Positions 31,831 to 48,891 of a DNA stretch of 64,000 nucleotides are shown here, piece by piece. The stretch is from contig OZ242320.1 of the NCBI GenBank assembly GCA_965208125.1, positions 544,001 to 608,000 on the forward strand, written 5' to 3'. Under the pieces are notes generated by a model. It was not told the DNA's origin. It saw only the letters and a list, made by a program, of their open reading frames with translations, and ran no database searches. Each line of letters starts with the position of its first letter. Within the stretch, counting starts at the first letter, position 1. The stretch comes from Candidatus Latescibacterota bacterium. Lineage in GTDB: Bacteria; Latescibacterota; UBA2968. The translations under genes were made by a program, and so were the position numbers.

Positions 31831-31918
31831 TGTGTGTTTCCATGTTCCAATTGGCGTTCTTCATAATATACGCTTTCATTGCAAATCGCTTACCGAAAAA
31901 ATTCCGTTAAAAAATGGG

Positions 31919-32626: not shown

Positions 32627-32644
32627 TAACCCTCAATTATTTTG

Positions 32645-33376: not shown

Positions 33377-34741
33377 ATGACAACAGATCAAATCAGAGCG
33401 CGTCTTGAAAGCGACAAAATTCAAAAAATTAAACTCGCTGGCTTCGACATCGACGGCGTTATGCGCGGCAAATACATATCGCTCGACAAATTCTTTTCTG
33501 CCATCGAAAAGGGCCTGGGCTTCTGCGATGTGACATTTGGCTGGGATATGATCGATCAACTCTACGAACAACCCACCGTCACGGGCTGGCATACCGGATA
33601 CCCGGACCTCCTCGCCAAAATCGACCTCAGCACCTATCGCGTGATACCCTGGGAACAAAATACCGCGTTATTTTTACTCGACTTTTACGAAAACAAAAAT
33701 CAGCCACTTGCGGTATCCCCGCGCCAACTGCTCCAAACAGTCGTACGCAAAGCAAATGACATGGGATTCCAGCCATACATGTCCGCAGAATACGAATACT
33801 TCATCTTTCGGGAAACGCCCCACTCTCTTGAGGACAAAGGGTATGAAAATATGACGCCACTCTCGCCTGGATGGTTTGGCTACAGCGTGCTGCGTGCATC
33901 TGCGGCTTCAGAACTTGTTCACGCAATAATCGATGGAATGGGAGCGTATAGCGTTGAACTGGAAGGCATACACACCGAAACAGGACCCGGCGTATATGAA
34001 ACCGCGATTCGGTACGACACGGCATGTAACGCCGCAGACAAAGCCGCGCTATTCAAAACTGGCGTCAAAGAGATACTATCCAGACACGGACTCGTCGCAA
34101 CCTTTATGGCGAGGTGGAGCCCAGATTACCCCGGCTGCAGCGGGCACCTGCACCAGAGCTTGTGGAATTTAGAGGAAGACACAAATTTATTCGCCGATGA
34201 ATCAGATCCACAGGGCATATCTCAAATAATGAAACACTATATCGCCGGACAAATCGCTACAATGCCCCAAATGATGGCACTGATATGCCCGACCATCAAC
34301 GCCTACAAGCGGACAGTCCCCGGTGCCTGGGCGCCGACCAACGCCTCCTGGGGCATTGAAAATCGAACCACATCTCTCCGCGCGATTCCCGGTACATCTC
34401 CTGAATCCACGCGCACCGAATATCGACTGGCTGGCGCCGACGCCAATCCCCATATCTCGATGGCGGCCAGCCTCGCCGCCGGGCTATACGGCATAGAGCA
34501 TCAACTCGACCCCGGCGAGCCGTACAACGGAAATGCCTACGAAGCCCCCGAAGAACGGTTTGCACCTTTGCCAAAATCACTTGAAGAAGCGACAGACCGG
34601 TTAAAAAATAGCGAAATTATCCGCGCCTGTCTCGGCGACGCATTTGTAGATCACTTCGCAATCACCCGCGAACACGAAATTGCGGAATATCGACGCGCCA
34701 TAACGGATTGGGAACTCAAGCGATACTTTGAGATCATCTGA
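33377..34741 (+). CDS. Glutamine synthetase family protein (gamma-glutamyl ligase type)
   Basis: DIDGVMRGK, EYEYF, HTETGPG.YE, GCSGHLHQSL, WG.ENRT, EYR. Confidence 0.9.
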   Translation: MTTDQIRARLESDKIQKIKLAGFDIDGVMRGKYISLDKFFSAIEKGLGFCDVTFGWDMIDQLYEQPTVTGWHTGYPDLLAKIDLSTYRVIPWEQNTALFLLDFYENKNQPLAVSPRQLLQTVVRKANDMGFQPYMSAEYEYFIFRETPHSLEDKGYENMTPLSPGWFGYSVLRASAASELVHAIIDGMGAYSVELEGIHTETGPGVYETAIRYDTACNAADKAALFKTGVKEILSRHGLVATFMARWSPDYPGCSGHLHQSLWNLEEDTNLFADESDPQGISQIMKHYIAGQIATMPQMMALICPTINAYKRTVPGAWAPTNASWGIENRTTSLRAIPGTSPESTRTEYRLAGADANPHISMAASLAAGLYGIEHQLDPGEPYNGNAYEAPEERFAPLPKSLEEATDRLKNSEIIRACLGDAFVDHFAITREHEIAEYRRAITDWELKRYFEII

Positions 34742-36236
34742 ACGCCTCCACAATATAGTTCCCCACCCGCAGGGCATTTGCCGCAATTGTCAAACTCGGA
34801 TTGACGCCGCCAGATGTGGGAAACACGCTCCCATCCGTCACAAACAAATTGTCAATTCCTCGAAATCGACAGTTTTCATCCAGCACACTCGTCTCTTCAT
34901 CATCGCCCATACGCACTGACCCCACACCATGAGAAAAAGTATCAATGCGATACGTATGAAAAAAAAGCGCGCCTGACGCGCGCAAAATGTCTTTAGCCTT
35001 CTCCACCAGATAATCGCGGCGTTCGCAATCTCGCGCTGTGTACTGATGTATGACCTGTGCACGGCTGATTCCATAAACATCCTTCTCATCTGCCAGCACC
35101 ACGCGATTCTCAAACTGCGGTTCATCCTCTGCAACACACAACAGATTCTGCAAAAAGCCAGCAGCCATTGCCGTCAGGTTTTTAAGTCCAAAAGGCGCGT
35201 GGTGTTTCAGTGCTATAGGCGACGGCGTGTAAATATCCTGGATCACCCCAACGGCGCGACCGTCCTGCCCTCGACAATCTTCGTAAAAATCCGAAAAACA
35301 CACCTGCTTGTGAAACACCTGTTCGGGATTCGTGCGAAATGGAAACACCCCCGCCACAACAGCATTGCAATGCCGCATCAAAAAACGCCCAATCAAATCG
35401 CCCTGCGGAAACGAATGCAACTCTGACCGCAACAAAATAGCCGGACTTTGCAGCGCCCCCGCAGCGACAACAGCAACAGACGCGGGCACATCAAACGCCT
35501 TTTTTGTACGCCGATCCACACACGCCACAGTGCGCACGCGCCCCCGTTTGCAAATAACACGCGCGACCTGCACCCCCGTCAAAATCTCAGCCCCTGCATC
35601 TTGTGCCAATTTGAGCAACGTCATAGTCAGATCATTTTTAGCCTCAATTTGACACGGAAAACCATCGCAGGTCAAACATCGAATACACACGGTTCGCGCT
35701 CGATCCGAAAAATTGATCGCCAGTGGCATGCGAAAAGGCCGATATCCCAATGTACATCCAGCATCCCAAATGCGTTGTGCGGGGCGGGACAGTTCAATAG
35801 GCGGATACAAAAAGTCGCCCGTCCGCGGCGGCTCACACGGATCGACACCCACCTCTCCATGCACTTCCAAAAAGCGCTCGACACAATCGTAATGCGGAGC
35901 CAGATCCCCATACAAAATCGGCCACGCGACCAGATCTTCTTCGCGCAGCCTCAGCGATGCCCCACCGTAAAACACAGACATCCCACCAACCACTTCATTC
36001 TCGACCACATCTGAAAAATCGCGGTCCTCATATTGCCTGACGCGAATCGGTGATGGTCCTTGATAGCGTTTCTCAACCAGCACAGAACGGGGGTCCCAAT
36101 CCTCTGCATCGCGCCTTGCCCAATCGCCCCGCTCCAACAGTAAAACCTTCATACCCGCCGCAGCCAACACATAAGCGCAGGCACTACCTCCAAATCCCGT
36201 ACCGATAATAACAGCGTCGTAATCGTTAAAATTCAT
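34734..36236 (-). CDS. GMC family oxidoreductase
   Basis: IIGTGFGG, VGG.S..Y.G, C..C..C..FPC…AK, H..G..RMG, NLFVTDGS.FP..GVNPSLTI.ANA. Confidence 0.9.
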   Translation of the reverse strand: MNFNDYDAVIIGTGFGGSACAYVLAAAGMKVLLLERGDWARRDAEDWDPRSVLVEKRYQGPSPIRVRQYEDRDFSDVVENEVVGGMSVFYGGASLRLREEDLVAWPILYGDLAPHYDCVERFLEVHGEVGVDPCEPPRTGDFLYPPIELSRPAQRIWDAGCTLGYRPFRMPLAINFSDRARTVCIRCLTCDGFPCQIEAKNDLTMTLLKLAQDAGAEILTGVQVARVICKRGRVRTVACVDRRTKKAFDVPASVAVVAAGALQSPAILLRSELHSFPQGDLIGRFLMRHCNAVVAGVFPFRTNPEQVFHKQVCFSDFYEDCRGQDGRAVGVIQDIYTPSPIALKHHAPFGLKNLTAMAAGFLQNLLCVAEDEPQFENRVVLADEKDVYGISRAQVIHQYTARDCERRDYLVEKAKDILRASGALFFHTYRIDTFSHGVGSVRMGDDEETSVLDENCRFRGIDNLFVTDGSVFPTSGGVNPSLTIAANALRVGNYIVEAFR

Positions 36237-37027
36237 TAAACCTCAAAAACATACAAAACAATTAATCCAACAATAATAACCAGCGCCCCGTAGTGGAATT
36301 TTTCTCGGTTATCAATACATCGCTGAATTCGCGGCAAATCGGGGCGAAATTTGCCCGACATCGTGCGCTGAATATAAGTCTTGTAATACTCCACAACAAA
36401 ACGCTCCAACCCACCATTCATATACACCAGAAATCCCAACGATATGGGATGCAGGGGATCATTTAAAAAATAGAACAGCGGCGAGCAAATCGCCAGCACC
36501 AGGCCCGACCGCTGAAATTTCAAAATTTTAAACCCCTCAAACGGCGCGTCTTTATACGCCCCGCCAAGCGACACCAGCAGACCTGTTACATAAGCAGTCA
36601 GAAGAAATACCCAGAACATCGTCACAGGCGCGGGAATCAACAATACGGCAAAAACGCCCAGCACCAGCACGGTACCAACCGCATAACGCAACAAATCGCT
36701 CGCCACATATCGACCGAAAAACGTAATGCGGGAAGGCACAAAATACTTATCCTGATCTTCCGTGCGAAAAAACCCCTTATAAAGCTCGGCCAAAAACCGT
36801 TCCAACCCCATAATCAGAAAAAAAATCTGAACCCATCCCAACGCAGAAAAACTCGCCTTAAAAATCGGGGCAAAATACAACACCGCAAAAATCACAACAT
36901 GAAAATAAACACTCCTCGGAAACGTCCTGGCCTTAAAATCCTCGTAAGGCGAATCCTTAAACGCCCCCCACAGGGAAGTATAAAGTCCAGATACAATACT
37001 CACGCCCAGACCAATATAGAAATTCAT
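36236..37027 (-). CDS. Uncharacterised membrane protein with internal two-fold repeat
   Basis: GAFKDSPYEDFK vs GAYKDAPFEGFK; GLERFLAELYK vs GLERFVVEYYK. Confidence 0.75.
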   Translation of the reverse strand: MNFYIGLGVSIVSGLYTSLWGAFKDSPYEDFKARTFPRSVYFHVVIFAVLYFAPIFKASFSALGWVQIFFLIMGLERFLAELYKGFFRTEDQDKYFVPSRITFFGRYVASDLLRYAVGTVLVLGVFAVLLIPAPVTMFWVFLLTAYVTGLLVSLGGAYKDAPFEGFKILKFQRSGLVLAICSPLFYFLNDPLHPISLGFLVYMNGGLERFVVEYYKTYIQRTMSGKFRPDLPRIQRCIDNREKFHYGALVIIVGLIVLYVFEV

Positions 37028-37029
37028 AG

Positions 37030-39474
37030 CTATAATTCCGATTCGTCTAATGCCTTCACTTCACCTTTTTTTCGCACCCGATCTCCTTCAAGCACTTCCA
37101 AAATAGCTGGCAGCACCAGCACGGCGGCCACAAAACAGGTCAACAACCCAATCAGTGCCAGACGCCCAATTGAGTTCAGGCCGGGATGCGTCGCCATCAT
37201 CAATCCAAAAAAGCCGATCATCGTCGTCAACATAGAAATGAACATCGCCCCACCTGTGCTCCTGATCACCACCGGCATGGAACCGGGACCCTCCTCTCGA
37301 TATCGGTGATAGAGATGCACCCCATTGTCAATCCCCATACCAATAATAGTGGGCAACGCGACCATATTGTAGAAATTGAGCTTCAAATCCTGCAAATACA
37401 GCGAACCACACATCCACACAGTGCCACAGGTAAGGGGAAAAATCACCAGCAAAGCAGAGCGCAAACTGCGAAAATCAGCCAGCACAATGAGAAACACAAC
37501 CGCCACTGTCAGCGAAATCGCACGCGGACTATCGCGCAGCATCAACTGCAACATATCGGCAAAAATGATATTGGAACTCGACGAATAAAACACCTTGCCC
37601 GATGCGGTTTGAATCTCGTGTGAATCTTCGGCAAATGCAATGGCATTTTTTCCATCGCGCAACTGCACACTCGGCAAAATTTGTGCGAAATACGCCTGAC
37701 TGCCATCAATAGTCTCAAATTTTCTCAATAAATTCTCGGGCAAATCCTCAACCGAAAGTCTTTTGACATCCAACAAACCGCGCAGAGAATCGAGCTGTGC
37801 CTTTTGCTCTCCCCTGATCAACTTCGCGCCCTCGCCATCGGCCAGCGCGCGAATTTCCCCAATAATATCCAGCTTCTCGTCCTGACCGCGCAACTCTGTC
37901 CAGAGCGTTTTGACTTTGTCAATCGTCGGCGTTGGATCATCTTCGGCTATCTTCTTTTCCAATGCATCCACAATCTCATCGAGTTCCGCTTTGCTATCCG
38001 CCAGCACAATACCATAAGACTGCGATTCACTGCCATATTTCGGAATCGTCGCCATCTTTTGTTTTACTTTCACCGATGCGGGCAAATTGGAACGCAAATT
38101 GGTGAAATCGTATTCAAAATCGATATCGGGCAAATGGATGCCCAGGTATATCGTGAGGATCAGCGCGCTGGCAATCACCAGCTTTGGATATGGAAAATGT
38201 CCCCGGCCACCGCCCCAATTATGCCCCCACACATGCCGCATGCGAATCCACATGAACCTTTGATCCGCCAGCACCAGCACAGCGGGCAATACGGTCGTCA
38301 TCGAGACCAGCGACATCAAAATACCCGTACCCACAATAAAACCAAATTCCGTAAAACCCCTGAAATCTGTCAACGTCAGAGAAAAGAACGCAATAGATGT
38401 GGTTATCGCCGCCGTCAAAATAGCCTGTCCAGTCTGACTCAGCATCGTCTCTATGGACATTCGCACATCCGTCTTGTCCATGCGAACTTCGAGATATCGC
38501 GCAAACATGTGAATGCCAAAATCGATTCCCAGCCCAAACAAAATCACAAACAAGAAAGCCGTCATGGTATTCAAATTGCCGATAACCCAATAAGTAATCG
38601 CAAACGCCCAGATCAGGCCCATCGCCAGCGGAATAGCCACAAAAAAAGCCGCCAACGGCTGGCGAAAATAAAACGTCAAAAGTGCGACAATACCCATGAT
38701 ACCAAATATCAACGTCGAGCGGACATCGCTTAAAATGGTATCGTATTCATCAATCTTGTTCTTAAACGGTCCTCCGTATTCAATCAACATCTGTGGGTGA
38801 TACGCGCGCGGATTCACCTTCTTGACAGCCTGCTGAATCACTCGCTGCATATCTTTGGCAAAACCGATATTGCTCACCGTACCCGCTGCCATTGCCTCCA
38901 GTGCCAGGATGGTGCGGTCGGGATTGGTATAATACGTCTCGTCCCCATTATCCGCCGTGCGATACTTCGACTCAATATCCGAAAAATCGAGCACGGCTTC
39001 TTCTTCATCAAGAGAAATATACAACGGCGACAGCTTCAACTTTTCCTGGATGATATAATCATCTATACGCGTGAGAACCTCATCTAAATCATCCGTTTCC
39101 ATAAACAACAGCGCGTTCTTGCGATAAAATTCCGCATCTCGCTTGTAATCGACAAAGTTGATGTACGTCTCGTAGTTCTCGTCCTGTAATTCACGTGCCA
39201 GATCCTCTGCAAAACGCCTGTTTGCCTCAAACTCAGGACTCTGGACCAAAACCACCAGACTGCCCACACCGCCCACGCGCTGTTTGATCTCATTGAGCGT
39301 CTTCACACTCTGATAATTTTCCGGGATCAGGGCAATGAGATCCGTCTCGAGCTTCCGTCCAAGCCTGTACACAAAAATACTACAAAAAGCCGTCAACAAA
39401 ATCGACACCACAAGAATACCTCTGTAGTGCCGATAAGTCCACCCCGCCAAAAAACGAAGCCCCACTTCAACCAA
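37030..39474 (-). CDS. MMPL/HpnN-like RND lipid transporter
   Basis: Two 1+5 TM repeats; GLGIDFGIH and GMGIDNGVH TM4/TM10 Asp motifs. Confidence 0.9.
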   Translation of the reverse strand: MVEVGLRFLAGWTYRHYRGILVVSILLTAFCSIFVYRLGRKLETDLIALIPENYQSVKTLNEIKQRVGGVGSLVVLVQSPEFEANRRFAEDLARELQDENYETYINFVDYKRDAEFYRKNALLFMETDDLDEVLTRIDDYIIQEKLKLSPLYISLDEEEAVLDFSDIESKYRTADNGDETYYTNPDRTILALEAMAAGTVSNIGFAKDMQRVIQQAVKKVNPRAYHPQMLIEYGGPFKNKIDEYDTILSDVRSTLIFGIMGIVALLTFYFRQPLAAFFVAIPLAMGLIWAFAITYWVIGNLNTMTAFLFVILFGLGIDFGIHMFARYLEVRMDKTDVRMSIETMLSQTGQAILTAAITTSIAFFSLTLTDFRGFTEFGFIVGTGILMSLVSMTTVLPAVLVLADQRFMWIRMRHVWGHNWGGGRGHFPYPKLVIASALILTIYLGIHLPDIDFEYDFTNLRSNLPASVKVKQKMATIPKYGSESQSYGIVLADSKAELDEIVDALEKKIAEDDPTPTIDKVKTLWTELRGQDEKLDIIGEIRALADGEGAKLIRGEQKAQLDSLRGLLDVKRLSVEDLPENLLRKFETIDGSQAYFAQILPSVQLRDGKNAIAFAEDSHEIQTASGKVFYSSSSNIIFADMLQLMLRDSPRAISLTVAVVFLIVLADFRSLRSALLVIFPLTCGTVWMCGSLYLQDLKLNFYNMVALPTIIGMGIDNGVHLYHRYREEGPGSMPVVIRSTGGAMFISMLTTMIGFFGLMMATHPGLNSIGRLALIGLLTCFVAAVLVLPAILEVLEGDRVRKKGEVKALDESEL

Positions 39475-39488
39475 TGAGTGCCACCTTT

Positions 39489-40139
39489 CTAATCCGACGT
39501 ATCTTCACTTAGTTTTTCTTTTAATTTATCCATCAAGCCCGTAAAAGAAGACCTGCGAATCTCCCGGCGAAACTGCGATCGGTTGCTGCGCGCAACACTC
39601 AACTCATCGATGACCATATCGTAAATCAACCACTTCCCATCAACGAGATGCAATTTATAGTCAATCGTACTCGACTCGCGCCTGTAATACACCACCGTCT
39701 TGACAACAGCCTGTGTGCTGTCAACCTCAACGCCCGTATAATCGATCTTTTCCGCTTTAGTATATAACGCGGGATCGGCATAATTTTTCTCGATCAACTG
39801 CCTGTTCACAGCCACAAAATCAGCCCGCTCTTCTTCTGTTCGCGCTGTCCAATCTCGACCGAGGGACTCCCGGCTAAATGTTTCAAAATCGAACAACTCA
39901 CCCACGATAGCTTTAAGCGCAGCGCGCTCTTCAGCCGTATCACCGCCGGTTTCTGAACGCACAATATCCTGAATCGCCCGATCGCGGCTCTTCACCATCT
40001 CGAGCAGCGCATCGCCCTGATTAGACGCGCTCGCCACACCCATCAAAACGAGCATCAGAAACGCAGGCCAGAGCAACAAAATCATAATATATCGCCTATT
40101 AATATCAACAACTTGTTTGCAGACAGAATTTTCATCCAT
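39489..40139 (-). CDS. MlaC/Ttg2D (HpnM-like) periplasmic lipid-binding protein
   Basis: FDFE..SR.SLG..W, IDYKL….W.IYD.VID..S…..RSQF; start uncertain (40085-40166). Confidence 0.88.
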   Translation of the reverse strand: MDENSVCKQVVDINRRYIMILLLWPAFLMLVLMGVASASNQGDALLEMVKSRDRAIQDIVRSETGGDTAEERAALKAIVGELFDFETFSRESLGRDWTARTEEERADFVAVNRQLIEKNYADPALYTKAEKIDYTGVEVDSTQAVVKTVVYYRRESSTIDYKLHLVDGKWLIYDMVIDELSVARSNRSQFRREIRRSSFTGLMDKLKEKLSEDTSD

Positions 40140-40342
40140 TTTAATATTTTTTTCCTCCAAAGTCAAGCCAGCGACAGCCTGTCTTAAAAAAAGAGAACTT
40201 GAGTATTAACAAAAAGAAAGAATAGTCTATCGCGCAACAAAATTCTCTAATGATTTTGAAAAAAATACCGCGTACAAACAAACTTCTGTTGAAGTTATAC
40301 ACCCCCCAACAGAAGTTTATCCCAATCCAGATAGGATTTGCA

Positions 40343-41788
40343 TCAATCTGCTTTCTCTCCCACATCCACATTCAAAGCACCGCGCGCGCGAAGCATCTGT
40401 CCGCCAAAGCCAAAAATACCCGCCGTCAACAGGGCAGAACCAATCACGAGGAACCAGTACATACCCTCAATGCTATTGGCGACAGCCAGCGTGCAAAAGA
40501 AAGCGGCAAAAAAATCGCGGCGACTCACAAATTTGAGCGACATACAAAAGCGGTGAAACCACCCGCGTTCACTCTCGGGAACATCGCTCGAAAACGCCAT
40601 ATTAAAACTCACAATACTGCCGGACCCCACCAATTTCATATACAGAAAAATCAGCAATACCCCCAACACATCGAGAAAAACCATCACACCGCCCAGCAGG
40701 GGATAAAATGCCTCACCCGTATATTCGTACATCCCGGCGAGCACCGCGGTAAAAAACACGAGATAGGACATATTATCCGCCAGCGTATCGACCCACTCAC
40801 CCAGGCGAGAACCCATAAATTTTAATTTCGCAATCTCGCCATCACACCCATCTACAATAGACGCAAACTGAAACAACAGCCCGCCCAGTGCCAGATGCAA
40901 ATAACTCGTACTCCCCTTAAAAACCAGCCATGCCGACAGAAAACTCAACAACATCGTCGCAATCGACAACTGGTTTGGCGTTATGGGCGTATGCACGAGC
41001 AGGCGAGAAATGCGCGTGGAAATTTTGCGATTGAAATAGCGCGAAACAAAACCATCGGTCGGCTTGCCGAGTCTGCGAAACATCTCCTGCTCCGCGTGGA
41101 CATGTGCCTCGGGCGTATCCACATCGAGCCAAAACGCGCCATCGATATCCGCAGTCCGCATACTGCCTCTCTCAGCCAGAACGCGAATCCCTCCCGACAA
41201 TGACCCCTCGCCCTCTGCAATAGACTGCTCGAGCGCGCCAAACAAAAACGGACTGCACAGAAAAATTCCCGTATCCACCGCATTGAAATCGGCCAACTCT
41301 TTCCCAATTTTGACCACGCGACGGTTCACTGTCATAACCTTCGTAGCATCTTCCATATCAAAAATGCCATCGAGACCTGTATCGACACACAGCACAGCTT
41401 CATCCTGCCCAACCGGCATACGACGCAATTTGACCAGTATCTCGGGATCAAACAGATGATCGGACATCAAAAGAATAAACGGCTCATCGACATATTCTCT
41501 GGCACTCAATACCGACACCCCATTGCCGCGCGCCCATTCCTTATTTTCAACCCAGTCAATCGCCGCATCCGAAAGCTGTGGATCATCGGCAAGCGCGTGC
41601 ATAATCTCGTGGCACCGATATCCAACCACAACCACAAACTCCGAAATGCCCGCGCGCATAGCCGACAAAATCGTGCGCTTGAGCAATGGCACACCGGCCA
41701 GGGGCACGAGAGGCTTGGGCAAATCCGCCCCATAACCTCTCAACCGACTACCCATACCAGCGGCAATAATTACAGCTTTATTCACCAT
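40343..41788 (-). CDS. Bifunctional NTP transferase / CDP-alcohol phosphotransferase (IPCT/DIPPS-like)
   Basis: AVIIAAGMGSRL…PKPL; LMSDH; W.DVDTPE; KPTDGFVSR.FNR.IS; TPNQ; DGCDGEIAK-x8-G-x3-D-x3-D. Confidence 0.9.
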   Translation of the reverse strand: MVNKAVIIAAGMGSRLRGYGADLPKPLVPLAGVPLLKRTILSAMRAGISEFVVVVGYRCHEIMHALADDPQLSDAAIDWVENKEWARGNGVSVLSAREYVDEPFILLMSDHLFDPEILVKLRRMPVGQDEAVLCVDTGLDGIFDMEDATKVMTVNRRVVKIGKELADFNAVDTGIFLCSPFLFGALEQSIAEGEGSLSGGIRVLAERGSMRTADIDGAFWLDVDTPEAHVHAEQEMFRRLGKPTDGFVSRYFNRKISTRISRLLVHTPITPNQLSIATMLLSFLSAWLVFKGSTSYLHLALGGLLFQFASIVDGCDGEIAKLKFMGSRLGEWVDTLADNMSYLVFFTAVLAGMYEYTGEAFYPLLGGVMVFLDVLGVLLIFLYMKLVGSGSIVSFNMAFSSDVPESERGWFHRFCMSLKFVSRRDFFAAFFCTLAVANSIEGMYWFLVIGSALLTAGIFGFGGQMLRARGALNVDVGEKAD

Positions 41789-41822
41789 AACTTCTACAAC
41801 CTTTCGCAATATCCCGAGCAAT

Positions 41823-43139
41823 TTACAACAGACTGCGCCCGACAGCCCGTTGCAATCTCACCCAGGATCGGTTAAAATTGAATACTGCTTCGTAATATTT
41901 GGCGCGAATAACACCGTACTCTTTTGCGGCATCAATCATATCCGATGCCTCTTCAAGCCCGGCATTAAACCCATCGCGAACCGATATAAACCACCGGCGG
42001 GTCGCCCGCCGCGCCACGCTGGCAGCCGCCATATTTTTCTGTGCCTCGATCAACTCGCGGTAAATCTTCTCAATTTCAATTGCCACGCCCTTCTCGGCCA
42101 GTTGCTTTTGATACAACAACTTCTGATATTCCAAACTCGCTTTCCGCGCCTTCGCCGACGTAAGCCCAAACGACAGCGACTGCCGAACACCTATCACCGC
42201 CCCCGCCTGCAAAATATTGAAATCATCTCTGGCAAAAGGACTTAGTTGATCGTCGCGATTCGGTGCGTAGCCATACTTAAATTGGCCCGCAATAAATATC
42301 TGGGGATACTGCTCGCCTTTTGCCACCTGCATTAGAGATTCACGCACCTGCACAGCAGCCTGCAACTGCTGCATATCCTCGCGCGCTCCCGCGCGTTTGA
42401 GATAAAATTCAAGCGGTTCAATCTCCACATCAACCGGTGTTAAAGGACCAGCAAGAATTAGCGAATCCCCTTCGCTCAATCCCAAAAGCAGGCGCAGGGC
42501 AGACTCGGCAAGCGCTTTTGTTTTCGCTGCCTCATGTACTTTTTCACGCACATCAAAGGCAAACCGATCAATGCGGTTCAGATCCGCATACGTAAAATCG
42601 CCTTCCTCTGCCTCCAGCTTCTCCGACACAAAATCGCGCGCCGTTTGAAAATCACTTTGCGCCTCCAATGCCAATGCCCACAAATCCTGCGTCAGTTGCA
42701 ACCCAAAATACACCTCGGCAACCTGAAGTTCCAGATCGCCTCTCGCTTTTCGCAGACCCGCCTGTTGAGCCGTCACCCCTGCCATAGCTGCTGCTTTGGC
42801 CCCGGACAAATAGCCAAATGTGAACAGAGGTTGCACAACCGTGGCTTCCGTACGCGTAAAAATACTCAAATGACTCAGCATGGTCTCACCGACAAGCGCG
42901 TCACCGCGCGCCTCGGGCGAGGGACCAATAACAGATCGCAGTTCAAACTGCGGCAAAAAGCGGATGGCATTGGCCTGGTCTAATTGCGCCCGCGCAATAT
43001 CGACATCAACCACTGCTGCACGCACGCCGGGATGCACGCGCATGGCCTGTGCAATACTCGCGGACAAATCATACGTTTCGGCGCGAAGAGAATGCACACA
43101 AATAAAAATCCCCAAATAGGACACACATAGCTTGAACAT
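41823..43139 (-). CDS. TolC-family outer membrane efflux protein
   Basis: N-terminal signal-like segment, P….A, QPLFTFG, VAEVYF, helical repeats, terminal L.RAVG; start ATG 43139 preferred. Confidence 0.85.
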   Translation of the reverse strand: MFKLCVSYLGIFICVHSLRAETYDLSASIAQAMRVHPGVRAAVVDVDIARAQLDQANAIRFLPQFELRSVIGPSPEARGDALVGETMLSHLSIFTRTEATVVQPLFTFGYLSGAKAAAMAGVTAQQAGLRKARGDLELQVAEVYFGLQLTQDLWALALEAQSDFQTARDFVSEKLEAEEGDFTYADLNRIDRFAFDVREKVHEAAKTKALAESALRLLLGLSEGDSLILAGPLTPVDVEIEPLEFYLKRAGAREDMQQLQAAVQVRESLMQVAKGEQYPQIFIAGQFKYGYAPNRDDQLSPFARDDFNILQAGAVIGVRQSLSFGLTSAKARKASLEYQKLLYQKQLAEKGVAIEIEKIYRELIEAQKNMAAASVARRATRRWFISVRDGFNAGLEEASDMIDAAKEYGVIRAKYYEAVFNFNRSWVRLQRAVGRSLL

Positions 43140-43317
43140 GTGTGAAAAAAAACCACACCTGTTGCGATTTAACAACACAACCCCCTGGACTCCAGCGAAA
43201 AATTCAGAATCATAAAAATCTATATCTATATTAAACAAATACTTAAAAAGACCATCCAAACAGTCACAAAATATTGTCCCCTATATAAGCGAAATCCGTG
43301 CCATCGTAAAATATATG

Positions 43318-43342
43318 AAAAAACCGGACAAAAGTCCGGGTT
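43318..43342 (-). terminator. Rho-independent terminator after the LPG-TM gene
   Basis: Minus strand CCGGAC-TTTT-GTCCGG-TTTTTT. Confidence 0.55.
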
Positions 43343-43387
43343 AGCTATACTAACGTTTTAATCCGAGAGGAGTTCCCTTCCACATAT

Positions 43388-44335
43388 TCATCGCCGCACC
43401 GCCATCAAAACAAATCCAAAAGACACCCAGAAAATTTTCCGGATGCGCCGGATCAAGGCAACGCCCAATCCCAATTCGGGTGTCAACCCCAACAATTGAA
43501 AAAGAAACACATGCCCACTCTCAAAAACGCCAACACCAGATGGAATAAAGAAAAACGCCGTGTTTATAATCAACGACAGGGACGTGAGTAAAAAAGCGGT
43601 CAAAAAAGATTGTGGCTGCCCCAACAAGCTGAGAATCGCATACACTTCAAAAGTTCCCAAAACCCAACTCAGCATGTGCAGTGCCATACACACCCAGAAC
43701 CCCAGACGATTCTGCTTGTAAAATGCCGCAATCGTCCGATCAACTTCTTCAAACTTCTCGCGCCTCGACTCCAAAACAGAGAGACGCAACTTCTTTAAAA
43801 CATCCAGCAACCATATAGACGCCCGTTGGCGCTGAGACACATACGCTGCCACAATTCCAATCGTACCTAACACCAGGGCAGCCCCCAATCCAATCTGCAC
43901 CTCTACTGAAAGTGGAAACATGCCCACGGCCAACCCCGTACCAATCAGCGCAAAGACCAGACCGCTCACCAATTCAACCGTCTTATTGATCACCAGAGAA
44001 GGTACGCCCCGCGTCACAGAAACCCGATCGCGCAACATATACGCTTTGGCCACCTCACCGCCCACATGAGAAGCCGGTGTGACATTACCAATAGCTTCTC
44101 CCGACAACTTTGTGCAAAAAAGTGACCAAAAATGCGGACGATCGCCATCAAAACACATCGCCCATGCCCACGTATTGCTCACATGCCAGCCCAATGCAAT
44201 GAGCAAAACAGGCACATAGCCCCACCCCATCTGCCGCACCTGCGTCCAGGCGGCGATAATCCCAACCTCGTAAATCAACACCGCCAGCAGCGTTAACCCA
44301 ATTCCCCAGAACATCACCTTGCGCGCAGTTTTCAT
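43388..44335 (-). CDS. Lysylphosphatidylglycerol-synthase TM-region (HpnL/flippase-like) membrane protein
   Basis: N.TP…GGE..KAY.L, P.G.G..E, RRIR..FW; multiple TM helices. Confidence 0.82.
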   Translation of the reverse strand: MKTARKVMFWGIGLTLLAVLIYEVGIIAAWTQVRQMGWGYVPVLLIALGWHVSNTWAWAMCFDGDRPHFWSLFCTKLSGEAIGNVTPASHVGGEVAKAYMLRDRVSVTRGVPSLVINKTVELVSGLVFALIGTGLAVGMFPLSVEVQIGLGAALVLGTIGIVAAYVSQRQRASIWLLDVLKKLRLSVLESRREKFEEVDRTIAAFYKQNRLGFWVCMALHMLSWVLGTFEVYAILSLLGQPQSFLTAFLLTSLSLIINTAFFFIPSGVGVFESGHVFLFQLLGLTPELGLGVALIRRIRKIFWVSFGFVLMAVRR

Positions 44336-45933: not shown

Positions 45934-45962
45934 TTGACAATATCAATGCAACACAATATAAT
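45934..45962 (+). promoter_or_regulatory. Consensus sigma70 promoter
   Basis: TTGACA-17 nt-TATAAT, 12 nt before ATG 45975. Confidence 0.8.
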
Positions 45963-45974: not shown

Positions 45975-46535
45975 ATGAAAACTCTAAAACAAAACGCCGT
46001 ACCACTCATAGCCTTTCTAATCGCGGGAAGCACAGCGATACTCGCCTACGACCACTTGTCCTATGTAATTCCCTATGTGGTCTTTAAGTATCCCATCGCC
46101 ATTGTCGTACTCTACGCATTTTTTCAACTCATCGCATTTGCAGAGCGTCGCCGCAGCGCCCAACTCGACGAAGTGGGCTTGCTTCGACCCCTGCGCGACG
46201 GCGCATTCCTCGTATGCCTGCACGCACACCTGCGCGACCTCGGCATAGACCTGAACCTTTTATCGTCGGCATCCAGCATGCACCTCGCCCTGTTGTCCTG
46301 GGCAGTCGCCCTCATCGGATATTATGCCCTTGAGCAACCCGGGGGACTACCTGGTCGCACAATCAATATCCTGTCCCCTTCTGCCACGCGCATCGCAGTC
46401 TGCCGCGGACTCATCCTCTCGGGACTGCTTGGGGTGATCGGCACATTTGCGGCAATCGCACAACCCCTCTGGCTCGGCCTCCCCCTGCTTCTGGTATTCA
46501 TTCGCGCCTATCTGCGGTCCGGAGACGGATCGTGA
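45975..46535 (+). CDS. Hypothetical membrane protein
   Basis: MKTLKQNAV… hydrophobic; start set by the promoter; GTGA overlap with EamA gene. Confidence 0.65.
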   Translation: MKTLKQNAVPLIAFLIAGSTAILAYDHLSYVIPYVVFKYPIAIVVLYAFFQLIAFAERRRSAQLDEVGLLRPLRDGAFLVCLHAHLRDLGIDLNLLSSASSMHLALLSWAVALIGYYALEQPGGLPGRTINILSPSATRIAVCRGLILSGLLGVIGTFAAIAQPLWLGLPLLLVFIRAYLRSGDGS

Positions 46536-48878: not shown

Positions 48879-48891
48879 CGTAAAAACCTCT

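What the first reader, a model, noticed from the sequence alone, without database searches (positions are those of the whole stretch)
34734..44335. Candidate undescribed lipid head-group synthesis and export system (IPCT/DIPPS-like + MMPL + MlaC + TolC + flippase-like + GMC oxidoreductase + unknown membrane protein)
Seen: seven co-oriented genes in tightly coupled blocks. tolC is followed by the bifunctional NTP-transferase/CDP-alcohol phosphotransferase; mlaC-like, mmpL, a repeat membrane protein and a GMC enzyme are spaced 0-14 nt apart; an LPG-synthase-TM gene lies upstream. Known: IPCT/DIPPS makes the soluble solute di-myo-inositol phosphate, whereas HpnL/HpnM/HpnN-like and MMPL/MlaC/TolC proteins move lipids across the diderm envelope. 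No squalene-hopene cyclase or sterol gene is in the window. Inference: a CDP-polyol is transferred to a lipid acceptor, flipped, possibly oxidised by the GMC enzyme, and delivered to the outer membrane or exported, giving a possibly new phospho-polyol lipid pathway.
Basis: partly seen in the sequence, partly recalled or inferred. Interest (0 to 1): 0.78.

Follow-up and report, generated by a model that had tools for sequence, protein, structure and literature searches.

The report
Conserved inositol-type envelope lipid gene cluster
An uncultured Latescibacterota bacterium keeps a relative of an archaeal inositol-solute enzyme next to outer-membrane lipid-transport genes, two sugar-type oxidoreductases and a membrane protein of unknown fold, which points to an undescribed envelope lipid pathway but does not prove one.

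Summary
Seven minus-strand genes lie at 34734-44335 with the stated families and spacing.

The window is Latescibacterota. The core order TolC-like, enzyme, MlaC-like, HpnN-like RND, unknown 263-aa protein, GMC recurs in related loci down to 56% enzyme identity.

- **Enzyme:** it is a true relative of Archaeoglobus IPCT/DIPPS and AF2299. The nucleotidyltransferase and donor-binding halves are conserved. The acceptor side (TM4-6) is diverged, with six TM helices and no extra lipid-acceptor module.
- **263-aa protein:** an unnamed family with an internal duplication. Its model is confident, no solved fold matches it, and some relatives are fused to DedA/VTT domains.
- **GMC:** it resembles the Fe-S-bearing catalytic subunit of sugar dehydrogenase complexes.
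- **Extra gene:** an IolG-like Gfo/Idh/MocA gene follows GMC in deeper lineages.

Caveats:
- mlaC has its own conserved promoter-like site, and insertions are tolerated upstream of it.
- Synteny also covers unrelated genes.
- The flippase-like gene is replaced by a GT4 in one lineage.
- No lipid acceptor is shown.
- shc and ino1 status of the genome stayed unchecked.

Verdict: partly supported, a new variant of known kinds.

The parts
44409..45917 (-). Periplasmic TPR + parvulin-type PPIase protein (502 aa, signal peptide). It is a conserved upstream neighbour; whether it belongs to the system is uncertain.
   Evidence: TPR families plus Rotamase_3 83.6 bits. Signal-peptide-like N-terminus. 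Present on the same strand in 27 of 29 informative loci.
43388..44335 (-). LPG_synthase_TM / HpnL-like 'flippase-like domain' membrane protein (315 aa).
   Evidence: PF03706 99.2 bits. TIGR00374 70.6 bits, above its 43.2 cut-off. HpnL TIGR03476 147.4 bits, below its 195.65 cut-off. Present in 21 of 29 informative loci; a GT4 glycosyltransferase sits in this place in L025-L029 and L031.
41823..43259 (-). TolC-like outer-membrane factor (OEP family). The likely true start is near 43139, before a signal peptide.
   Evidence: PF02321 98.8 bits in 2 stretches. TIGR01844 78.6 bits, below its 225 cut-off. Internal signal-like segment MFKLCVSYLGIFICVHSLRA. Directly upstream of the enzyme in 30 of 31 informative loci.
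40343..41821 (-). Bifunctional NTP-transferase (IPCT-like) / CDP-alcohol phosphotransferase (DIPPS/AF2299-like). Six TM helices, with a helical insert between TM4 and TM5. The likely start is the ATG at 41788.
   Evidence: Sequence match to PDB 4mnd E 7e-53 over residues 11-382. Transferase domain alone: AF2299 90.1 bits, 4mnd 79.6 bits. AF2 model pLDDT 93.9. Foldseek 4mnd E 1e-24, TM 0.67/0.79, followed by the IPCTs 4jd0 and 2xme. Motif D324xxD327G328xxA331K332...G341xxxD345xxxD349.
40138..40166 (-). Promoter-like site TTGACT-17 nt-TAAAAT just upstream of mlaC.
   Evidence: 10 of 12 consensus matches. The scan as a whole is not above chance: 17 sites against 14.2 +/- 3.8 in shuffles. The block CTTGACTTTG...ATAyTAAA is kept in L013 and L014 although 1.3 and 2.1 kb of other DNA lie between their enzyme and mlaC genes.
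39489..40166 (-). MlaC-like / HpnM-like periplasmic lipid-binding protein (225 aa as the longest ORF; signal peptide).
   Evidence: PF05494 110.5 bits. HpnM TIGR03481 61.9 bits, below its 160.1 cut-off. Hydrophobic N-terminal segment 27-45. Present in 32 of 33 informative loci.
37030..39474 (-). HpnN-like RND transporter of the MMPL/HAE3 type (814 aa).
   Evidence: PF03176 137.7 bits. TIGR03480 HpnN 320 bits (cut-off 752). BstA 201 bits (cut-off 1400). HAE3 TIGR00921 188 bits (cut-off 352). Best solved relative is Burkholderia HpnN 5khn, E 2.5e-31. Present in 32 of 33 informative loci.
36236..37027 (-). 263-aa polytopic membrane protein of an unnamed family. It has an internal duplication, no known fold, and is the most conserved protein of the cluster.
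   Evidence: No Pfam, NCBIfam or PDB sequence hit. 374 relatives, the 120 listed all at least 69% identical. 263 representatives at the 50% level. AF2 pLDDT 95.9, pTM 0.92. Best PDB fold match E 0.21, TM no higher than 0.24. Repeat z-score 17.7. D25, E29, K84, E164 and K216 are invariant in 62 sequences. Present in 29 of 31 informative loci.
34734..36236 (-). GMC-family flavoprotein dehydrogenase with an invariant CxxCxxCxxxxC block. It has no signal peptide and is translationally coupled to the 263-aa gene.
   Evidence: GMC_oxred_N and GMC_oxred_C. The profile of 17 orthologues matches FAD-glucose dehydrogenase alpha 6a2u_B, E 8e-41, end to end. C184, C187, C190 and C195 are invariant and fall in the loop that holds the 3Fe-4S cysteines of that enzyme (PMC6719666, passages). 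TAATG overlap with the 263-aa gene. Present in 26 of 29 informative loci.
46532..47416 (+). Divergently transcribed EamA/DMT transporter. It is a conserved neighbour; whether it belongs to the system is uncertain.
   Evidence: PF00892 115.5 bits. Present on the opposite strand in 25 of 29 informative loci.

Best explanation
This is a Latescibacterota envelope-lipid locus made of two or three adjacent transcription units.

**Proposed steps (all inferred unless marked)**
1. The tolC-coupled bifunctional enzyme activates a phosphorylated polyol with CTP. The polyol is most likely myo-inositol-1-phosphate, giving CDP-inositol.
2. At the cytoplasmic face of the inner membrane, its six-TM transferase domain passes the phospho-polyol to a hydroxyl group. 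I infer that this hydroxyl belongs to a membrane-anchored molecule: a lipid, or the polar head of a lipid or glycolipid.
3. The head group is then worked on by sugar/cyclitol-type oxidoreductases. One is the Fe-S-type GMC dehydrogenase, coupled to the unknown six-helix-type membrane protein. In most other lineages there is also an IolG-like Gfo/Idh/MocA enzyme.
4. In different lineages a flippase-like LPG_synthase_TM protein or a GT4 glycosyltransferase takes part.
5. The HpnN-like RND pump extracts the product, the MlaC-like periplasmic carrier takes it over, and it reaches the outer membrane. There the TolC-like protein is the only candidate receiver encoded here.

**Shown:** gene families, folds, motifs, spacing and conservation of the neighbourhood.
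**Inferred:** the identity of the donor, the lipid nature of the acceptor, the order of steps and the direction of transport.
For: **Neighbourhood**
- The core order is kept in Latescibacterota-type loci spanning 97% to 56% enzyme identity: TolC 30 of 31, MlaC 32 of 33, RND 32 of 33, 263-aa protein 29 of 31, GMC 26 of 29 informative loci.
- The window's own flanks (sulfatase and CehA-like genes upstream; GlnA-like, methyltransferase and ankyrin genes downstream) are found only in loci at 83% identity or more.
- Gaps are very short or genes overlap: 1-34 nt, 14 nt, 2 nt and TAATG in the window. GMC and Gfo/Idh/MocA are 3 nt apart or overlap in L018, L026 and L032.

**Enzyme**
- Both halves match AfIPCT/DIPPS. 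The best fold matches for the N-domain are inositol-1-phosphate cytidylyltransferases, ahead of RmlA and MurU.
- R26, K36 and D121 are invariant in 67 sequences. They have the spacing of the catalytic R16, K26 and D112 of T. maritima IMPCT (PMC12275187, passages). The mapping is my inference.
- Against 56 distant fused relatives, identity is 0.50 (N-domain) and 0.47 (JM + TM1-3) but only 0.22 in TM4-6. No significant alignment to AfDIPPS or AF2299 extends beyond residue 382. This is what a kept donor and a changed acceptor would look like.

**Partners point to lipids and cyclitols**
- The RND is closest to the hopanoid transporter HpnN. MlaC is a periplasmic lipid carrier family.
- 3 of 17 longer relatives of the 263-aa protein carry a VTT/DedA domain, a family I recall as lipid scramblases or flippases.
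- The GMC is closest to sugar dehydrogenase catalytic subunits. The best hits of the Gfo/Idh/MocA are inositol 2-dehydrogenases.

**Precedents**
- An unverified Kennedy-type CDP-inositol route to inositol lipids, with an LPG-synthase-like neighbour, has been proposed in Bacteroides and Prevotella (PMC9246714, passages).
- An IMPCT-like cytidylyltransferase feeds a ceramide head group in Caulobacter (PMC12275187).
- In an Erythrobacter locus, the N-domain relative (37% identity) sits beside MIPS, two CDP-alcohol transferases, GT4s and KpsE/M/T-type export genes.
- Sponge-associated Latescibacterota MAGs are reported to have a complete myo-inositol synthesis pathway (PMC12993501, passages).
Against: - **No lipid acceptor is shown.** The transferase has six TM helices and no extra C-terminal TM module. 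Clarke et al. associate that architecture with soluble acceptors. They state that AF2299 and AfDIPPS, the two closest solved relatives here, do not process lipids (PMC4634129, passages).
- **R435/D436 conservation.** These residues at the start of TM5 are at least 90% conserved across the family. They line up, in a non-significant alignment, with an Arg of AfDIPPS. That would suit a phosphorylated soluble acceptor.
- **The donor is not settled.** The transferase domain scores higher with AF2299 (90.1 bits), which binds CDP-glycerol, than with AfDIPPS (79.6 bits).
- **The enzyme and transport modules are separable.**
  - There is a 176-nt gap with a conserved promoter-like site before mlaC.
  - Insertions of 1.3-6 kb lie between them in L010, L013 and L014.
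  - L017 keeps tolC and the enzyme only, and L024 lacks the 263-aa and GMC genes.
- **Gene order here also covers unrelated genes.** A glycerate-2-kinase-like gene is present in 12 loci and an MrfA-like helicase in 6. Synteny alone therefore does not define a pathway.
- **Outside the phylum the association is absent.** The enzyme's relatives in 3 Myxococcota loci have no RND or MlaC neighbours.
- **No supporting biosynthetic genes.** There is no MIPS, acyltransferase, ceramide or DAG-forming gene in the window or in the 34 related loci.
- **The loci are not independent.** In 16 of 34 loci the enzyme is at least 94% identical to the window's.
Confidence: 0.4

Rival explanations
1. Two unrelated functions lie side by side. 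The bifunctional enzyme makes a soluble anionic phosphodiester solute: di-myo-inositol phosphate, glycerophosphoinositol or a diglycerol-phosphate-like compound. This would serve osmotic or stress protection, as its archaeal relatives do. The mlaC-RND-263aa-GMC unit is an independent outer-membrane lipid transport and modification module. Only inherited gene order links them.
For: - Both halves are homologous to AfIPCT/DIPPS, and the transferase domain to AF2299. Both are described as acting on soluble substrates (PMC4634129).
- Six-TM architecture.
- Conserved R435/D436.
- A separate promoter-like site and tolerated insertions before mlaC.
- The modules are separated in L017 and L024.
- Synteny extends to unrelated genes.
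- IPCT/DIPPS genes are reported in non-thermophilic deep-sea archaea (search listing).
Against: - The enzyme gene is translationally close to a TolC-like outer-membrane gene in 30 of 31 loci. That is unexpected for a cytoplasmic solute.
- The acceptor half is the least conserved part: identity 0.22 against 0.47-0.50 for the other parts. It does not align significantly with DIPPS.
- It scores 255 bits against the 580-bit cut-off of the IPCT/DIPPS equivalog model.
- The two modules stay adjacent across all roughly six lineages sampled.
Confidence: 0.3
2. The locus is a hopanoid or other isoprenoid-lipid system. The HpnL-, HpnM- and HpnN-like proteins move hopanoid-type lipids to the outer membrane, as proposed for Pseudomonadota. 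The transferase decorates the polyol side chain of such a lipid with a phospho-cyclitol.
For: - The three best NCBIfam names are HpnN, HpnM and HpnL.
- The best solved relative of the RND is HpnN.
- An HpnN-HpnM-HpnS route is proposed in PMC12324291 (passages).
- Terpene clusters of unstated type are reported in sponge Latescibacterota MAGs (PMC12993501, passages).
- A polyprenyl synthetase lies a few genes downstream in L024 and L026.
Against: - All three Hpn scores are far below their curated cut-offs: 320 of 752, 62 of 160 and 147 of 196.
- No squalene-hopene cyclase, HpnH, HpnG or MlaA-like HpnS was found in the window or in the loci scanned.
- The radical SAM gene of L024 is not HpnH: 51 bits against a 225-bit cut-off.
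- The main text of the hopanoid survey does not mention Latescibacterota: 0 occurrences. Its supplements were not read.
Confidence: 0.1
3. The enzyme adds phospho-inositol or phospho-glycerol units to an envelope glycan or glycolipid anchor, giving a capsule-like or teichoic-acid-like decoration. The neighbouring envelope genes serve the export or assembly of that polymer.
For: - In Erythrobacter (L038), relatives of both enzyme halves lie with MIPS, three GT4 glycosyltransferases and a KpsE/ABC-2/ABC export set.
- A GT4 replaces the flippase-like gene in L025-L029 and L031.
- A GT2-LPG_synthase_TM fusion lies near the split enzyme in Myxococcota L037.
Against: - No polymerase, Wzx/Wzy or Kps-type exporter lies in the window or in the Latescibacterota loci.
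- The transport genes present, an RND of the HAE3/HpnN type and MlaC, belong to lipid-handling families.
- The Erythrobacter protein is only 37% identical and covers the N-domain alone.
Confidence: 0.1

Closest known systems
Archaeoglobus fulgidus IPCT/DIPPS (PDB 4MND), the bifunctional enzyme of di-myo-inositol-phosphate synthesis
   Same: - Same two-domain order.
- Sequence E 7e-53 over residues 11-382.
- Fold E 1e-24, TM 0.67/0.79, 27% identity.
- Six TM helices.
- 7 of 8 signature residues.
   Different: - Lys replaces the signature Arg (K332).
- There is a helical insert of about 30 residues (403-433) between TM4 and TM5.
- TM4-6 does not align significantly.
- It scores 255 bits against the 580-bit equivalog cut-off.
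- The host is a bacterium of sponge- and marine-type MAG lineages, and the gene sits in an envelope gene context.
AF2299 of A. fulgidus (PDB 4O6M), a CDP-alcohol phosphotransferase that binds CDP-glycerol
   Same: It is the best sequence match for the transferase domain alone: 90.1 bits, E 1.8e-24, covering JM1 to TM3 and including RISRLL..TPNQ and DGCDGEIA.LKFM.
   Different: - The N-terminal domains do not align.
- The window protein has a full IPCT-like catalytic N-domain.
- The function of AF2299 is itself unsettled.
HpnN / HpnM (/HpnS) hopanoid trafficking of Pseudomonadota
   Same: An RND of the HpnN type beside an MlaC-type periplasmic protein, with an LPG_synthase_TM (HpnL-type) gene nearby (PMC12324291).
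   Different: - All scores are below the curated cut-offs.
- There is no MlaA-like HpnS and no hopanoid biosynthesis gene nearby.
- A TolC-like gene, a CDP-alcohol enzyme, the 263-aa protein and a GMC are present instead.
Putative alternative (Kennedy-type) inositol-lipid cluster of Bacteroides vulgatus and Prevotella (Heaver et al. 2022)
   Same: An NTP-transferase plus a CDP-alcohol phosphotransferase are proposed to make CDP-inositol and hand it to a lipid. An LPG-synthase-like gene lies in the vicinity (PMC9246714, passages).
   Different: - There the two enzymes are separate and lie next to MIPS and a HAD hydrolase.
- Here they are fused, with no MIPS or HAD in the locus.
- The Bacteroides pathway is itself unverified.
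CpgD / CPG2 pathway of Caulobacter crescentus
   Same: An IMPCT-like cytidylyltransferase makes a CDP-activated head-group donor that ends up on a membrane lipid's head group (PMC12275187, passages).
   Different: - The substrate there is phosphoglycerate and the lipid is a ceramide.
- The transferring enzyme is not a fused CDP-alcohol phosphotransferase.
Catalytic (alpha) subunit of FAD-dependent sugar dehydrogenase complexes (Burkholderia FAD-GDH 6A2U; Gluconobacter fructose dehydrogenase)
   Same: - End-to-end profile match, E 8e-41.
- A cysteine-rich loop lies at the place of the 3Fe-4S ligands.
   Different: - The cysteine spacing differs: CxxCxxCxxxxC against CCxxxxCxxxC.
- The cluster has no hitchhiker subunit and no multihaem cytochrome c subunit.
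- There is no signal peptide.
- It is coupled instead to the unknown 263-aa membrane protein.

Membership tests
IPCT/DIPPS (bifunctional DIP-phosphate synthase) | N-terminal inositol-1-phosphate cytidylyltransferase domain with its catalytic Arg/Lys/Asp | tested here: met
   2xme E 1.1e-25 and 4jd0 E 4.2e-23. IPCT structures are the best N-domain fold hits. R26, K36 and D121 are invariant in 67 sequences. Their equivalence to R16/K26/D112 is inferred from spacing. Substrate specificity was not tested.
IPCT/DIPPS (bifunctional DIP-phosphate synthase) | CDP-alcohol signature D1xxD2G1xxAR...G2xxxD3xxxD4, with eight residues called absolutely conserved | tested here: not met
   Seven of eight residues are present: D324, D327, G328, A331, G341, D345, D349. 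The Arg is Lys (K332) in the window and in at least 80% of the Latescibacterota-type group. This is a conservative change.
IPCT/DIPPS (bifunctional DIP-phosphate synthase) | Six-TM transferase domain | tested here: met
   The AF2 model (pLDDT 93.9) has helices 282-302, 307-333, 339-368, 372-398, 435-447 and 451-479, plus JM helix 258-275.
IPCT/DIPPS (bifunctional DIP-phosphate synthase) | Score above the curated equivalog cut-off (NF041135, built for Thermococcales) | tested here: not met
   255.2 bits against a 580-bit cut-off. The match covers model positions 2-349 of 419 only.
IPCT/DIPPS (bifunctional DIP-phosphate synthase) | Acceptor site for inositol-1-phosphate (TM4-6) conserved | tested here: inconclusive
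   There is no significant alignment beyond residue 382 (second stretch -0.3 and 0.8 bits). Only R435/D436 and G401 are conserved family-wide. The paper that defines the AfDIPPS pocket is not held in the library.
IPCT/DIPPS (bifunctional DIP-phosphate synthase) | Makes DIP-phosphate from CDP-inositol and inositol-1-phosphate | not testable with these tools
   Needs an enzyme assay.
HpnN hopanoid RND transporter | Score above the curated cut-offs (TIGR03480; NF052374) | tested here: not met
   320.3 bits against 751.85, and 206.5 bits against 1100.
HpnN hopanoid RND transporter | Genome makes hopanoids (shc present), with hpn genes nearby | not testable with these tools
   None was found in the window (61 ORFs) or in the loci scanned.
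MlaC / HpnM periplasmic lipid carrier | MlaC domain and export signal; HpnM subfamily score | tested here: met
   PF05494 scores 110.5 bits against a 26-bit cut-off, and there is a signal-like N-terminus. The HpnM subfamily is NOT met: 61.9 bits against 160.1.
HpnL (TIGR03476) | Score above the curated cut-off | tested here: not met
   147.4 bits against 195.65. It is a member of the wider LPG_synthase_TM / flippase-like domain family: PF03706 99.2 bits against 33.4, and TIGR00374 70.6 bits against 43.2.
Tripartite RND efflux pump (RND + membrane-fusion protein + TolC) | A periplasmic adaptor (HlyD/MFP) gene with the RND and the outer-membrane factor | tested here: not met
   None of the 19 ORFs between 27.3 and 51.5 kb has an MFP/HlyD domain. 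None was found in the flanks of 7 divergent loci.
FAD-dependent dehydrogenase complex, catalytic subunit (Fe-S-bearing GMC) | GMC fold plus a cysteine cluster for 3Fe-4S, with cytochrome c and hitchhiker subunits | tested here: inconclusive
   The fold-family match and four invariant Cys in the corresponding loop are met. The Cys spacing differs, and no cytochrome c or small-subunit gene is present. Cofactor content is not testable.
Bacteroides vulgatus-type alternative inositol-lipid cluster | MIPS + NTP-transferase + CDP-alcohol transferase + HAD hydrolase together | tested here: not met
   The transferase pair is present, as a fusion. No MIPS and no HAD lie in the window. tblastn with the L038 MIPS found no MIPS in L001-L037 or in the window.

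The most novel reading that the evidence does not exclude
Latescibacterota build a dedicated outer-membrane lipid that no characterised bacterium makes.

- A DIPPS/AF2299-derived enzyme has a re-tooled acceptor side. It puts a CDP-activated cyclitol phosphate onto a membrane lipid or onto a lipid head group.
- A new-fold, internally duplicated membrane protein presents the lipid to an Fe-S flavoprotein and an IolG-like dehydrogenase. Its relatives are fused to DedA/VTT domains. The two dehydrogenases oxidise or epimerise the cyclitol.
- An adaptor-less HpnN-like RND, an MlaC-like carrier and a TolC-like protein together form a new inner-to-outer-membrane lipid route.
Probability: 0.25. Interest if true: 0.8.

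Novelty: new variant of a known kind. Interest (0 to 1): 0.55.

Why it matters
- **Inositol lipids in bacteria.** They are rare, and their routes are known in only a few groups. A Kennedy-type route via CDP-inositol has been proposed but never shown. This locus offers a fused, compact candidate enzyme for such a route, or for a new use of an 'archaeal thermophile' solute enzyme in mesophilic marine and sponge bacteria.
- **A possible lipid transport route.** It couples that enzyme to a possible inner-to-outer-membrane route of the HpnN/MlaC type in a phylum without cultured members.
- **A family worth a structure and a function.** The 263-aa protein is at least 69% identical in the 120 clusters listed, has a confident model and matches no solved fold.
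- **Testable without the organism.** The locus can be studied by expression in E. coli, so no culture is needed.

Tried and rejected
- **Complex prediction, GMC (A2) with the 263-aa protein (A1).** The result was no verdict, score 0.00 in both runs. It gives nothing for or against binding.
- **Protein Atlas for the 263-aa protein.** Only unnamed clusters were returned (0.92-0.94; commonest phyla Myxococcota, Bacteroidota, Gemmatimonadota). No usable named cluster was found.
- **PDB searches for the 263-aa protein.** Nothing by sequence or by fold.
- **Search for short stand-alone relatives of the transferase domain.** The aim was to reach the Bacteroides/Prevotella enzyme. It returned 45 hits, mostly fragments and unnamed metagenome proteins, none named Bacteroides or Prevotella. 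The search depends on shared words, so this is no evidence of absence.
- **Paper on the AfIPCT/DIPPS structure.** It would define the acceptor pocket but is not held in the library. A review (PMC9385802) gave no residue list for it.
- **Rfam on the whole window.** No family reached its gathering score.
- **Terminator and promoter scans.** Promoters were not above shuffles (17 against 14.2 +/- 3.8). Terminator-like sites numbered 31 against 18.6 +/- 3.4, and most lie inside genes. Only the site before mlaC was used, because it is conserved.
- **Canonical tripartite efflux pump.** Considered and set aside, because there is no adaptor gene.
- **Sterol transport (BstA).** Considered and set aside. 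BstA scores 201 bits against a 1400-bit cut-off, lower than HpnN, and no BstB or BstC match was found.
- **Phosphoglycerate as the activated head group.** A glycerate-2-kinase-like gene lies upstream in 12 deeper loci, and CpgD is a precedent. This is kept as a possibility only. The kinase gene sits behind a divergently oriented gene and is absent from the window.
- **Not checked.**
  - The rest of the genome was not searched for ino1, shc, spt or lpx genes.
  - The gene neighbourhoods of the enzyme's 40-48% identical relatives and of distant members of the 263-aa family were not examined.
  - The supplements of PMC12324291 and PMC12993501 were not read.

Full report
**What is in the window**

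Between 34734 and 45917 the minus strand carries eight genes in a row. Pfam and NCBIfam name them as follows:

1. A secreted TPR + parvulin PPIase protein (44409-45917).
2. An LPG_synthase_TM / 'flippase-like domain' protein. Its best specific model is HpnL, at 147 bits against a 196-bit cut-off.
3. A TolC-like OEP protein.
4. A 492-aa fusion of an NTP-transferase and a CDP-alcohol phosphotransferase. Its best model is the Thermococcales IPCT/DIPPS equivalog, at 255 bits against a 580-bit cut-off.
5. An MlaC-domain protein (HpnM model, 62 bits against 160).
6. An MMPL/RND transporter (HpnN models: 320 bits against 752, and 206 against 1100; BstA 201 against 1400).
7. A 263-aa membrane protein with no hit in either library.
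8. A GMC flavoprotein.

- tolC to the enzyme is 1 nt for the longest ORF, or 34 nt to a better-placed ATG.
- mlaC to the RND is 14 nt.
- The RND to the 263-aa gene is 2 nt.
- The 263-aa gene and GMC overlap in TAATG.
- The enzyme and mlaC are 176 nt apart.

The TPR-PPIase, MlaC-like and TolC-like proteins have signal-peptide-like N-termini. The GMC has none.

None of the 61 distinct window ORFs scanned carries a squalene-hopene cyclase, sterol, MIPS or serine-palmitoyltransferase domain. Co-orientation by itself means little here, because 45 of 60 selected ORFs lie on the minus strand.

**Whose genome, and is the neighbourhood conserved?**

A scan of one genome per species with the enzyme returned 38 loci.
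- 34 loci encode a both-domain relative at 97-56% identity. Their titles are 30 Latescibacteria/Latescibacterota, 2 'Gemmatimonadota' and 2 'uncultured bacterium'.
- 3 loci are Myxococcota (38-46% identity), where the two domains are separate genes.
- 1 locus is an Erythrobacter, where only the N-domain matches (37%).

I ran tblastn with the window's proteins and counted only loci with enough fetched DNA on the relevant side:

| Gene | Present in informative loci |
|---|---|
| TolC-like | 30 of 31 |
| MlaC-like | 32 of 33 |
| RND | 32 of 33 |
| 263-aa protein | 29 of 31 |
| GMC | 26 of 29 |
| TPR-PPIase | 27 of 29 |
| Divergent EamA transporter | 25 of 29 |
| HpnL-like | 21 of 29 |

All are on the same strand as in the window, apart from the EamA gene, which lies on the opposite strand there too.

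The exceptions are informative:
- L017 keeps only tolC and the enzyme, followed by CARDB proteins.
- L024 lacks the 263-aa and GMC genes.
- L010 has about 6 kb of inserted DNA (a WD40 giant and two unknowns) between the enzyme and mlaC, so its GMC probably lies beyond the fetched end.
- L022 has barely enough upstream DNA to judge tolC.
- In L025-L029 and L031 a GT4 glycosyltransferase occupies the place of the HpnL-like gene.

The loci are not independent samples. In 16 of 34 the enzyme is at least 94% identical to the window's. By identity there are about six lineages.

The window's own flanks occur only in loci at 83% identity or more. These are the sulfatase and CehA-like hydrolase upstream, and the GlnA-like, methyltransferase and ankyrin genes downstream.

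**A gene the window lacks**

In 12 of 29 informative loci a 310-316-aa Gfo/Idh/MocA oxidoreductase follows GMC, at 3 nt or with an overlap. These are all the deeper lineages plus L014.
- Its best NCBIfam model is inositol 2-dehydrogenase IolG: 67-81 bits, far below the 355-bit cut-off.
- Its best solved relatives are inositol dehydrogenases (4hkt, E 4.5e-14).
- In the window's clade a convergent GlnA-like gene sits there instead.

The deeper loci also share upstream genes:
- a glycerate-2-kinase-like gene in 12 loci;
- a dual-specificity/PTP-type phosphatase with weak PTP-like-phytase similarity in 6 loci.

Downstream, 6 loci share an MrfA-like helicase.

This cuts both ways. It adds a cyclitol-type enzyme to the ancestral cluster. 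It also shows that gene order in this phylum is conserved for plainly unrelated genes, so synteny alone cannot delimit a pathway.

**The enzyme**

*Homology.*
- By sequence it matches A. fulgidus IPCT/DIPPS (4mnd) with E 7e-53 over residues 11-382. It also matches the stand-alone IPCTs 2xme and 4jd0.
- An AlphaFold model built on 67 sequences is confident (pLDDT 93.9, pTM 0.90).
- Its best fold match is 4mnd (E 1e-24, TM 0.67/0.79, 27% identity). The two inositol-1-phosphate cytidylyltransferases come next, ahead of RmlA, MurU and GalU.

*Motifs.*
- R26, K36 and D121 are invariant. They have the spacing of the catalytic R16/K26/D112 quoted for T. maritima IMPCT (PMC12275187, passages). The equivalence is my inference.
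- The transferase signature is D324xxD327G328xxA331K332...G341xxxD345xxxD349. That is seven of the eight canonical residues, with Lys for Arg.

*Architecture.*
- The model has one juxtamembrane helix and six TM helices, plus a helical insert (403-433) between TM4 and TM5. There is no additional TM module.
- Clarke et al. tie the six-TM form to soluble acceptors. They tie three or four extra helices to lipid acceptors. They place the acceptor pocket between TM4, TM5 and TM6 (PMC4634129, passages).

*Three observations that qualify the label 'DIPPS'.*
1. The transferase domain alone scores higher with AF2299 (90.1 bits) than with AfDIPPS (79.6 bits). AF2299 is an A. fulgidus enzyme of unsettled function that binds CDP-glycerol.
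2. Neither alignment continues significantly past residue 382.
3. Against 56 distant fused relatives, mean identity is 0.50 in the N-domain and 0.47 in JM + TM1-3, but 0.22 in TM4-6 and the tail. Family-wide conservation there is limited to G401 and R435/D436.

The donor-making and donor-binding parts are therefore conserved, and the acceptor side is free to differ. That fits a new acceptor. It would also fit relaxed constraint on those helices.

*Family size.* The family is large and unstudied. 1321 proteins score E <= 1e-10 among the 8000 candidates scored. Named members come from Latescibacteria, Gemmatimonadota/Longimicrobiales, Deltaproteobacteria, Myxococcota and Nitrospirae. Their names are only generic or automatic.

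**The 263-aa protein**

- It has no Pfam, NCBIfam or PDB sequence match.
- It is the best-conserved protein of the cluster. It is 66-71% identical in the loci where the enzyme is 56-62% identical.
- All 120 listed cluster representatives are at least 69% identical and are called hypothetical.
- An exhaustive search of 1.84 billion representatives found 263 at E <= 1e-3 and 160 at E <= 1e-10.
- Its halves are homologous, with z = 17.7 against shuffles. Each half carries a G-A-x-K-D-x-P-[YF]-E-x-F...F-x-R-S block and an E-R-x-x-x-E-x-Y-K block.
- D25, E29, K84, E164 and K216 are invariant in 62 sequences. That looks more like a catalytic or substrate-binding site than a passive anchor.
- The AlphaFold model is very confident (pLDDT 95.9, pTM 0.92), yet no solved structure resembles it (best E 0.21, TM <= 0.24).
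- Of 17 longer or odd-length relatives scanned:
  - three carry a VTT/DedA domain (E 3.4e-7 to 4.7e-5, each below the 33.9-bit gathering score);
  - one carries DUF3047;
  - one carries RecX helices, which is probably a gene-calling fusion.
- From memory, not from a call: DedA/VTT proteins are lipid scramblases or polyprenyl-phosphate flippases. The fusions are therefore a lead towards lipid handling.

**The GMC**

- A profile of 17 orthologues matches the catalytic subunit of Burkholderia FAD-glucose dehydrogenase end to end (6a2u_B, E 8e-41). It also matches the large subunit of fructose dehydrogenase (E about 5e-32). Cholesterol and choline oxidases are far weaker.
- Four cysteines (C184, C187, C190, C195) are invariant. 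They lie in the loop that aligns with Cys212/213/218/222 of that enzyme, three of which hold its 3Fe-4S cluster (PMC6719666, passages).
- The spacing differs, and no cytochrome c or hitchhiker subunit is encoded nearby.
- I therefore read it as a dehydrogenase that probably hands electrons on through an Fe-S centre, with an unknown partner. The translationally coupled 263-aa protein is the obvious candidate. The one complex prediction gave no verdict (see tried and rejected).

**Operon structure**

- A promoter-like TTGACT-17-TAAAAT lies at 40166-40138, just before mlaC.
- The same block is kept in L013 and L014, although 1.3 and 2.1 kb of unrelated DNA separate their enzyme and mlaC genes.
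- Hence mlaC-RND-263aa-GMC(-Gfo/Idh/MocA) is most likely its own transcription unit. tolC-enzyme is a second unit, and TPR-PPIase-HpnL-like perhaps a third.
- The tightest and most constant pair is tolC with the enzyme. That is an odd pairing for a cytoplasmic solute enzyme.

**What is known**

- Heaver et al. proposed, without proof, that Bacteroides vulgatus and Prevotella make inositol lipids by a Kennedy-type route. In it an NTP-transferase makes CDP-inositol and a CDP-alcohol transferase passes it to a lipid. An LPG-synthase-like gene lies near both kinds of cluster (PMC9246714, passages).
- CpgD of Caulobacter is an IMPCT-like enzyme that makes CDP-glycerate for a ceramide head group (PMC12275187). 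The N-domain's substrate therefore cannot be read from the fold alone.
- A 2025 preprint proposes HpnN-HpnM-HpnS as a hopanoid route to the outer membrane and leaves HpnL unexplained. Its main text does not mention Latescibacterota (PMC12324291, passages).
- Sponge-associated Latescibacterota MAGs are reported to hold a complete myo-inositol synthesis pathway and unspecified terpene clusters (PMC12993501, passages).
- Searches for 'CDP-inositol', for DIPPS/CDP-alcohol/di-myo-inositol, for HpnN/HpnM/HpnL/MlaC/inositol and for Latescibacter* with lipid terms turned up no description of this cluster.

**Verdict**

An envelope-lipid pathway that uses a CDP-activated cyclitol or polyol is the best single reading (confidence 0.4). 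Its central step, transfer to a lipid, is inferred from context only and runs against the six-TM, soluble-acceptor precedent.

The main rival (0.3) is a soluble phosphodiester synthase lying next to an independent HpnN/MlaC-type lipid module. Hopanoid-linked and glycan-linked variants take about 0.1 each.

Whatever the pathway, the 263-aa family and its coupling to an Fe-S-type GMC are new and worth study.

Noticed in passing
window 8504-10029 (+): An IS200/IS605-type element: a Y1 transposase (PF01797, 124.7 bits) followed by a TnpB-like gene (OrfB_IS605 + Cas12f1-like TNB domain).
   Followed up: no
window 4066-21557 (-): A long run of small-molecule-modifying genes:
- five GNAT acetyltransferases;
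- two APH-type kinases;
- an aminoglycoside 3-N-acetyltransferase (PF02522, 309.5 bits);
- an AadA_C-domain nucleotidyltransferase;
- two NUDIX proteins;
- two PNP_UDP_1 phosphorylases.

It looks like an antibiotic-modification or detoxification island.
   Followed up: no
window 22156-25473 (-): A methyltransferase (weak CMAS similarity), a fatty-acid desaturase and an FAD_oxidored protein (336.9 bits) lie in a row. This may be a lipid-tail modification trio. It is not conserved with the cluster.
   Followed up: no
window 27289-33253, 47499-59843: Features typical of sponge and marine symbiont genomes:
- an ankyrin-repeat protein;
- two sulfatases;
- two PhyH dioxygenases;
- a CehA/McbA-type metallohydrolase;
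- a TPP enzyme;
- a TonB-dependent receptor with a CarboxypepD_reg domain.

Several related loci come from MAGs whose isolate names suggest sponge or coral sources.
   Followed up: partly
L010 11733-17580; L013 about 11490-12770; L014 about 11490-13620: The gap between the enzyme and mlaC is an insertion hot spot in relatives. L010 holds a 1386-aa WD40 protein plus two unknown ORFs. L013 and L014 hold 1.3 and 2.1 kb of unrelated DNA. The promoter-like block before mlaC is kept in L013 and L014.
   Followed up: partly
L038 5352-16647 (Erythrobacter): This locus holds MIPS, an IPCT-like NTP-transferase, two CDP-alcohol phosphotransferases (one DIPPS-like in its juxtamembrane part), three GT4 glycosyltransferases and KpsE / ABC-2 / ABC export genes. 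It looks like a capsule-type locus that uses an inositol-phosphate building block or anchor.
   Followed up: partly
L035-L037 (Myxococcota), about 9974-12170: The enzyme is split into a 253-255-aa NTP-transferase and a 467-534-aa transferase. The first 250 or so residues of the transferase match no Pfam family. In L037 a GT2-LPG_synthase_TM fusion and CTP synthase lie nearby.
   Followed up: no
L018 2128-4208; L023, L024, L032-L034 equivalents: A dual-specificity/PTP-type phosphatase with weak PTP-like-phytase similarity and a glycerate-2-kinase-like gene lie upstream of the cluster in deeper Latescibacterota lineages. They could supply or trim a phosphorylated head group. Both are absent from the window.
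   Followed up: partly
window 45934-45962 (+): A perfect 12-of-12 sigma-70 consensus (TTGACA-17-TATAAT) lies in the 600-nt divergent region between the TPR-PPIase gene and the EamA gene.
   Followed up: no
window 29301-31830 (-), 48892-51450 (-): Large conserved ORFs with little or no family assignment:
- a 487-aa ORF with no hit;
- a 326-aa membrane protein with only a sub-threshold PHO4 match;
- an 852-aa protein whose only match is a CehA/McbA metallohydrolase domain.
   Followed up: no
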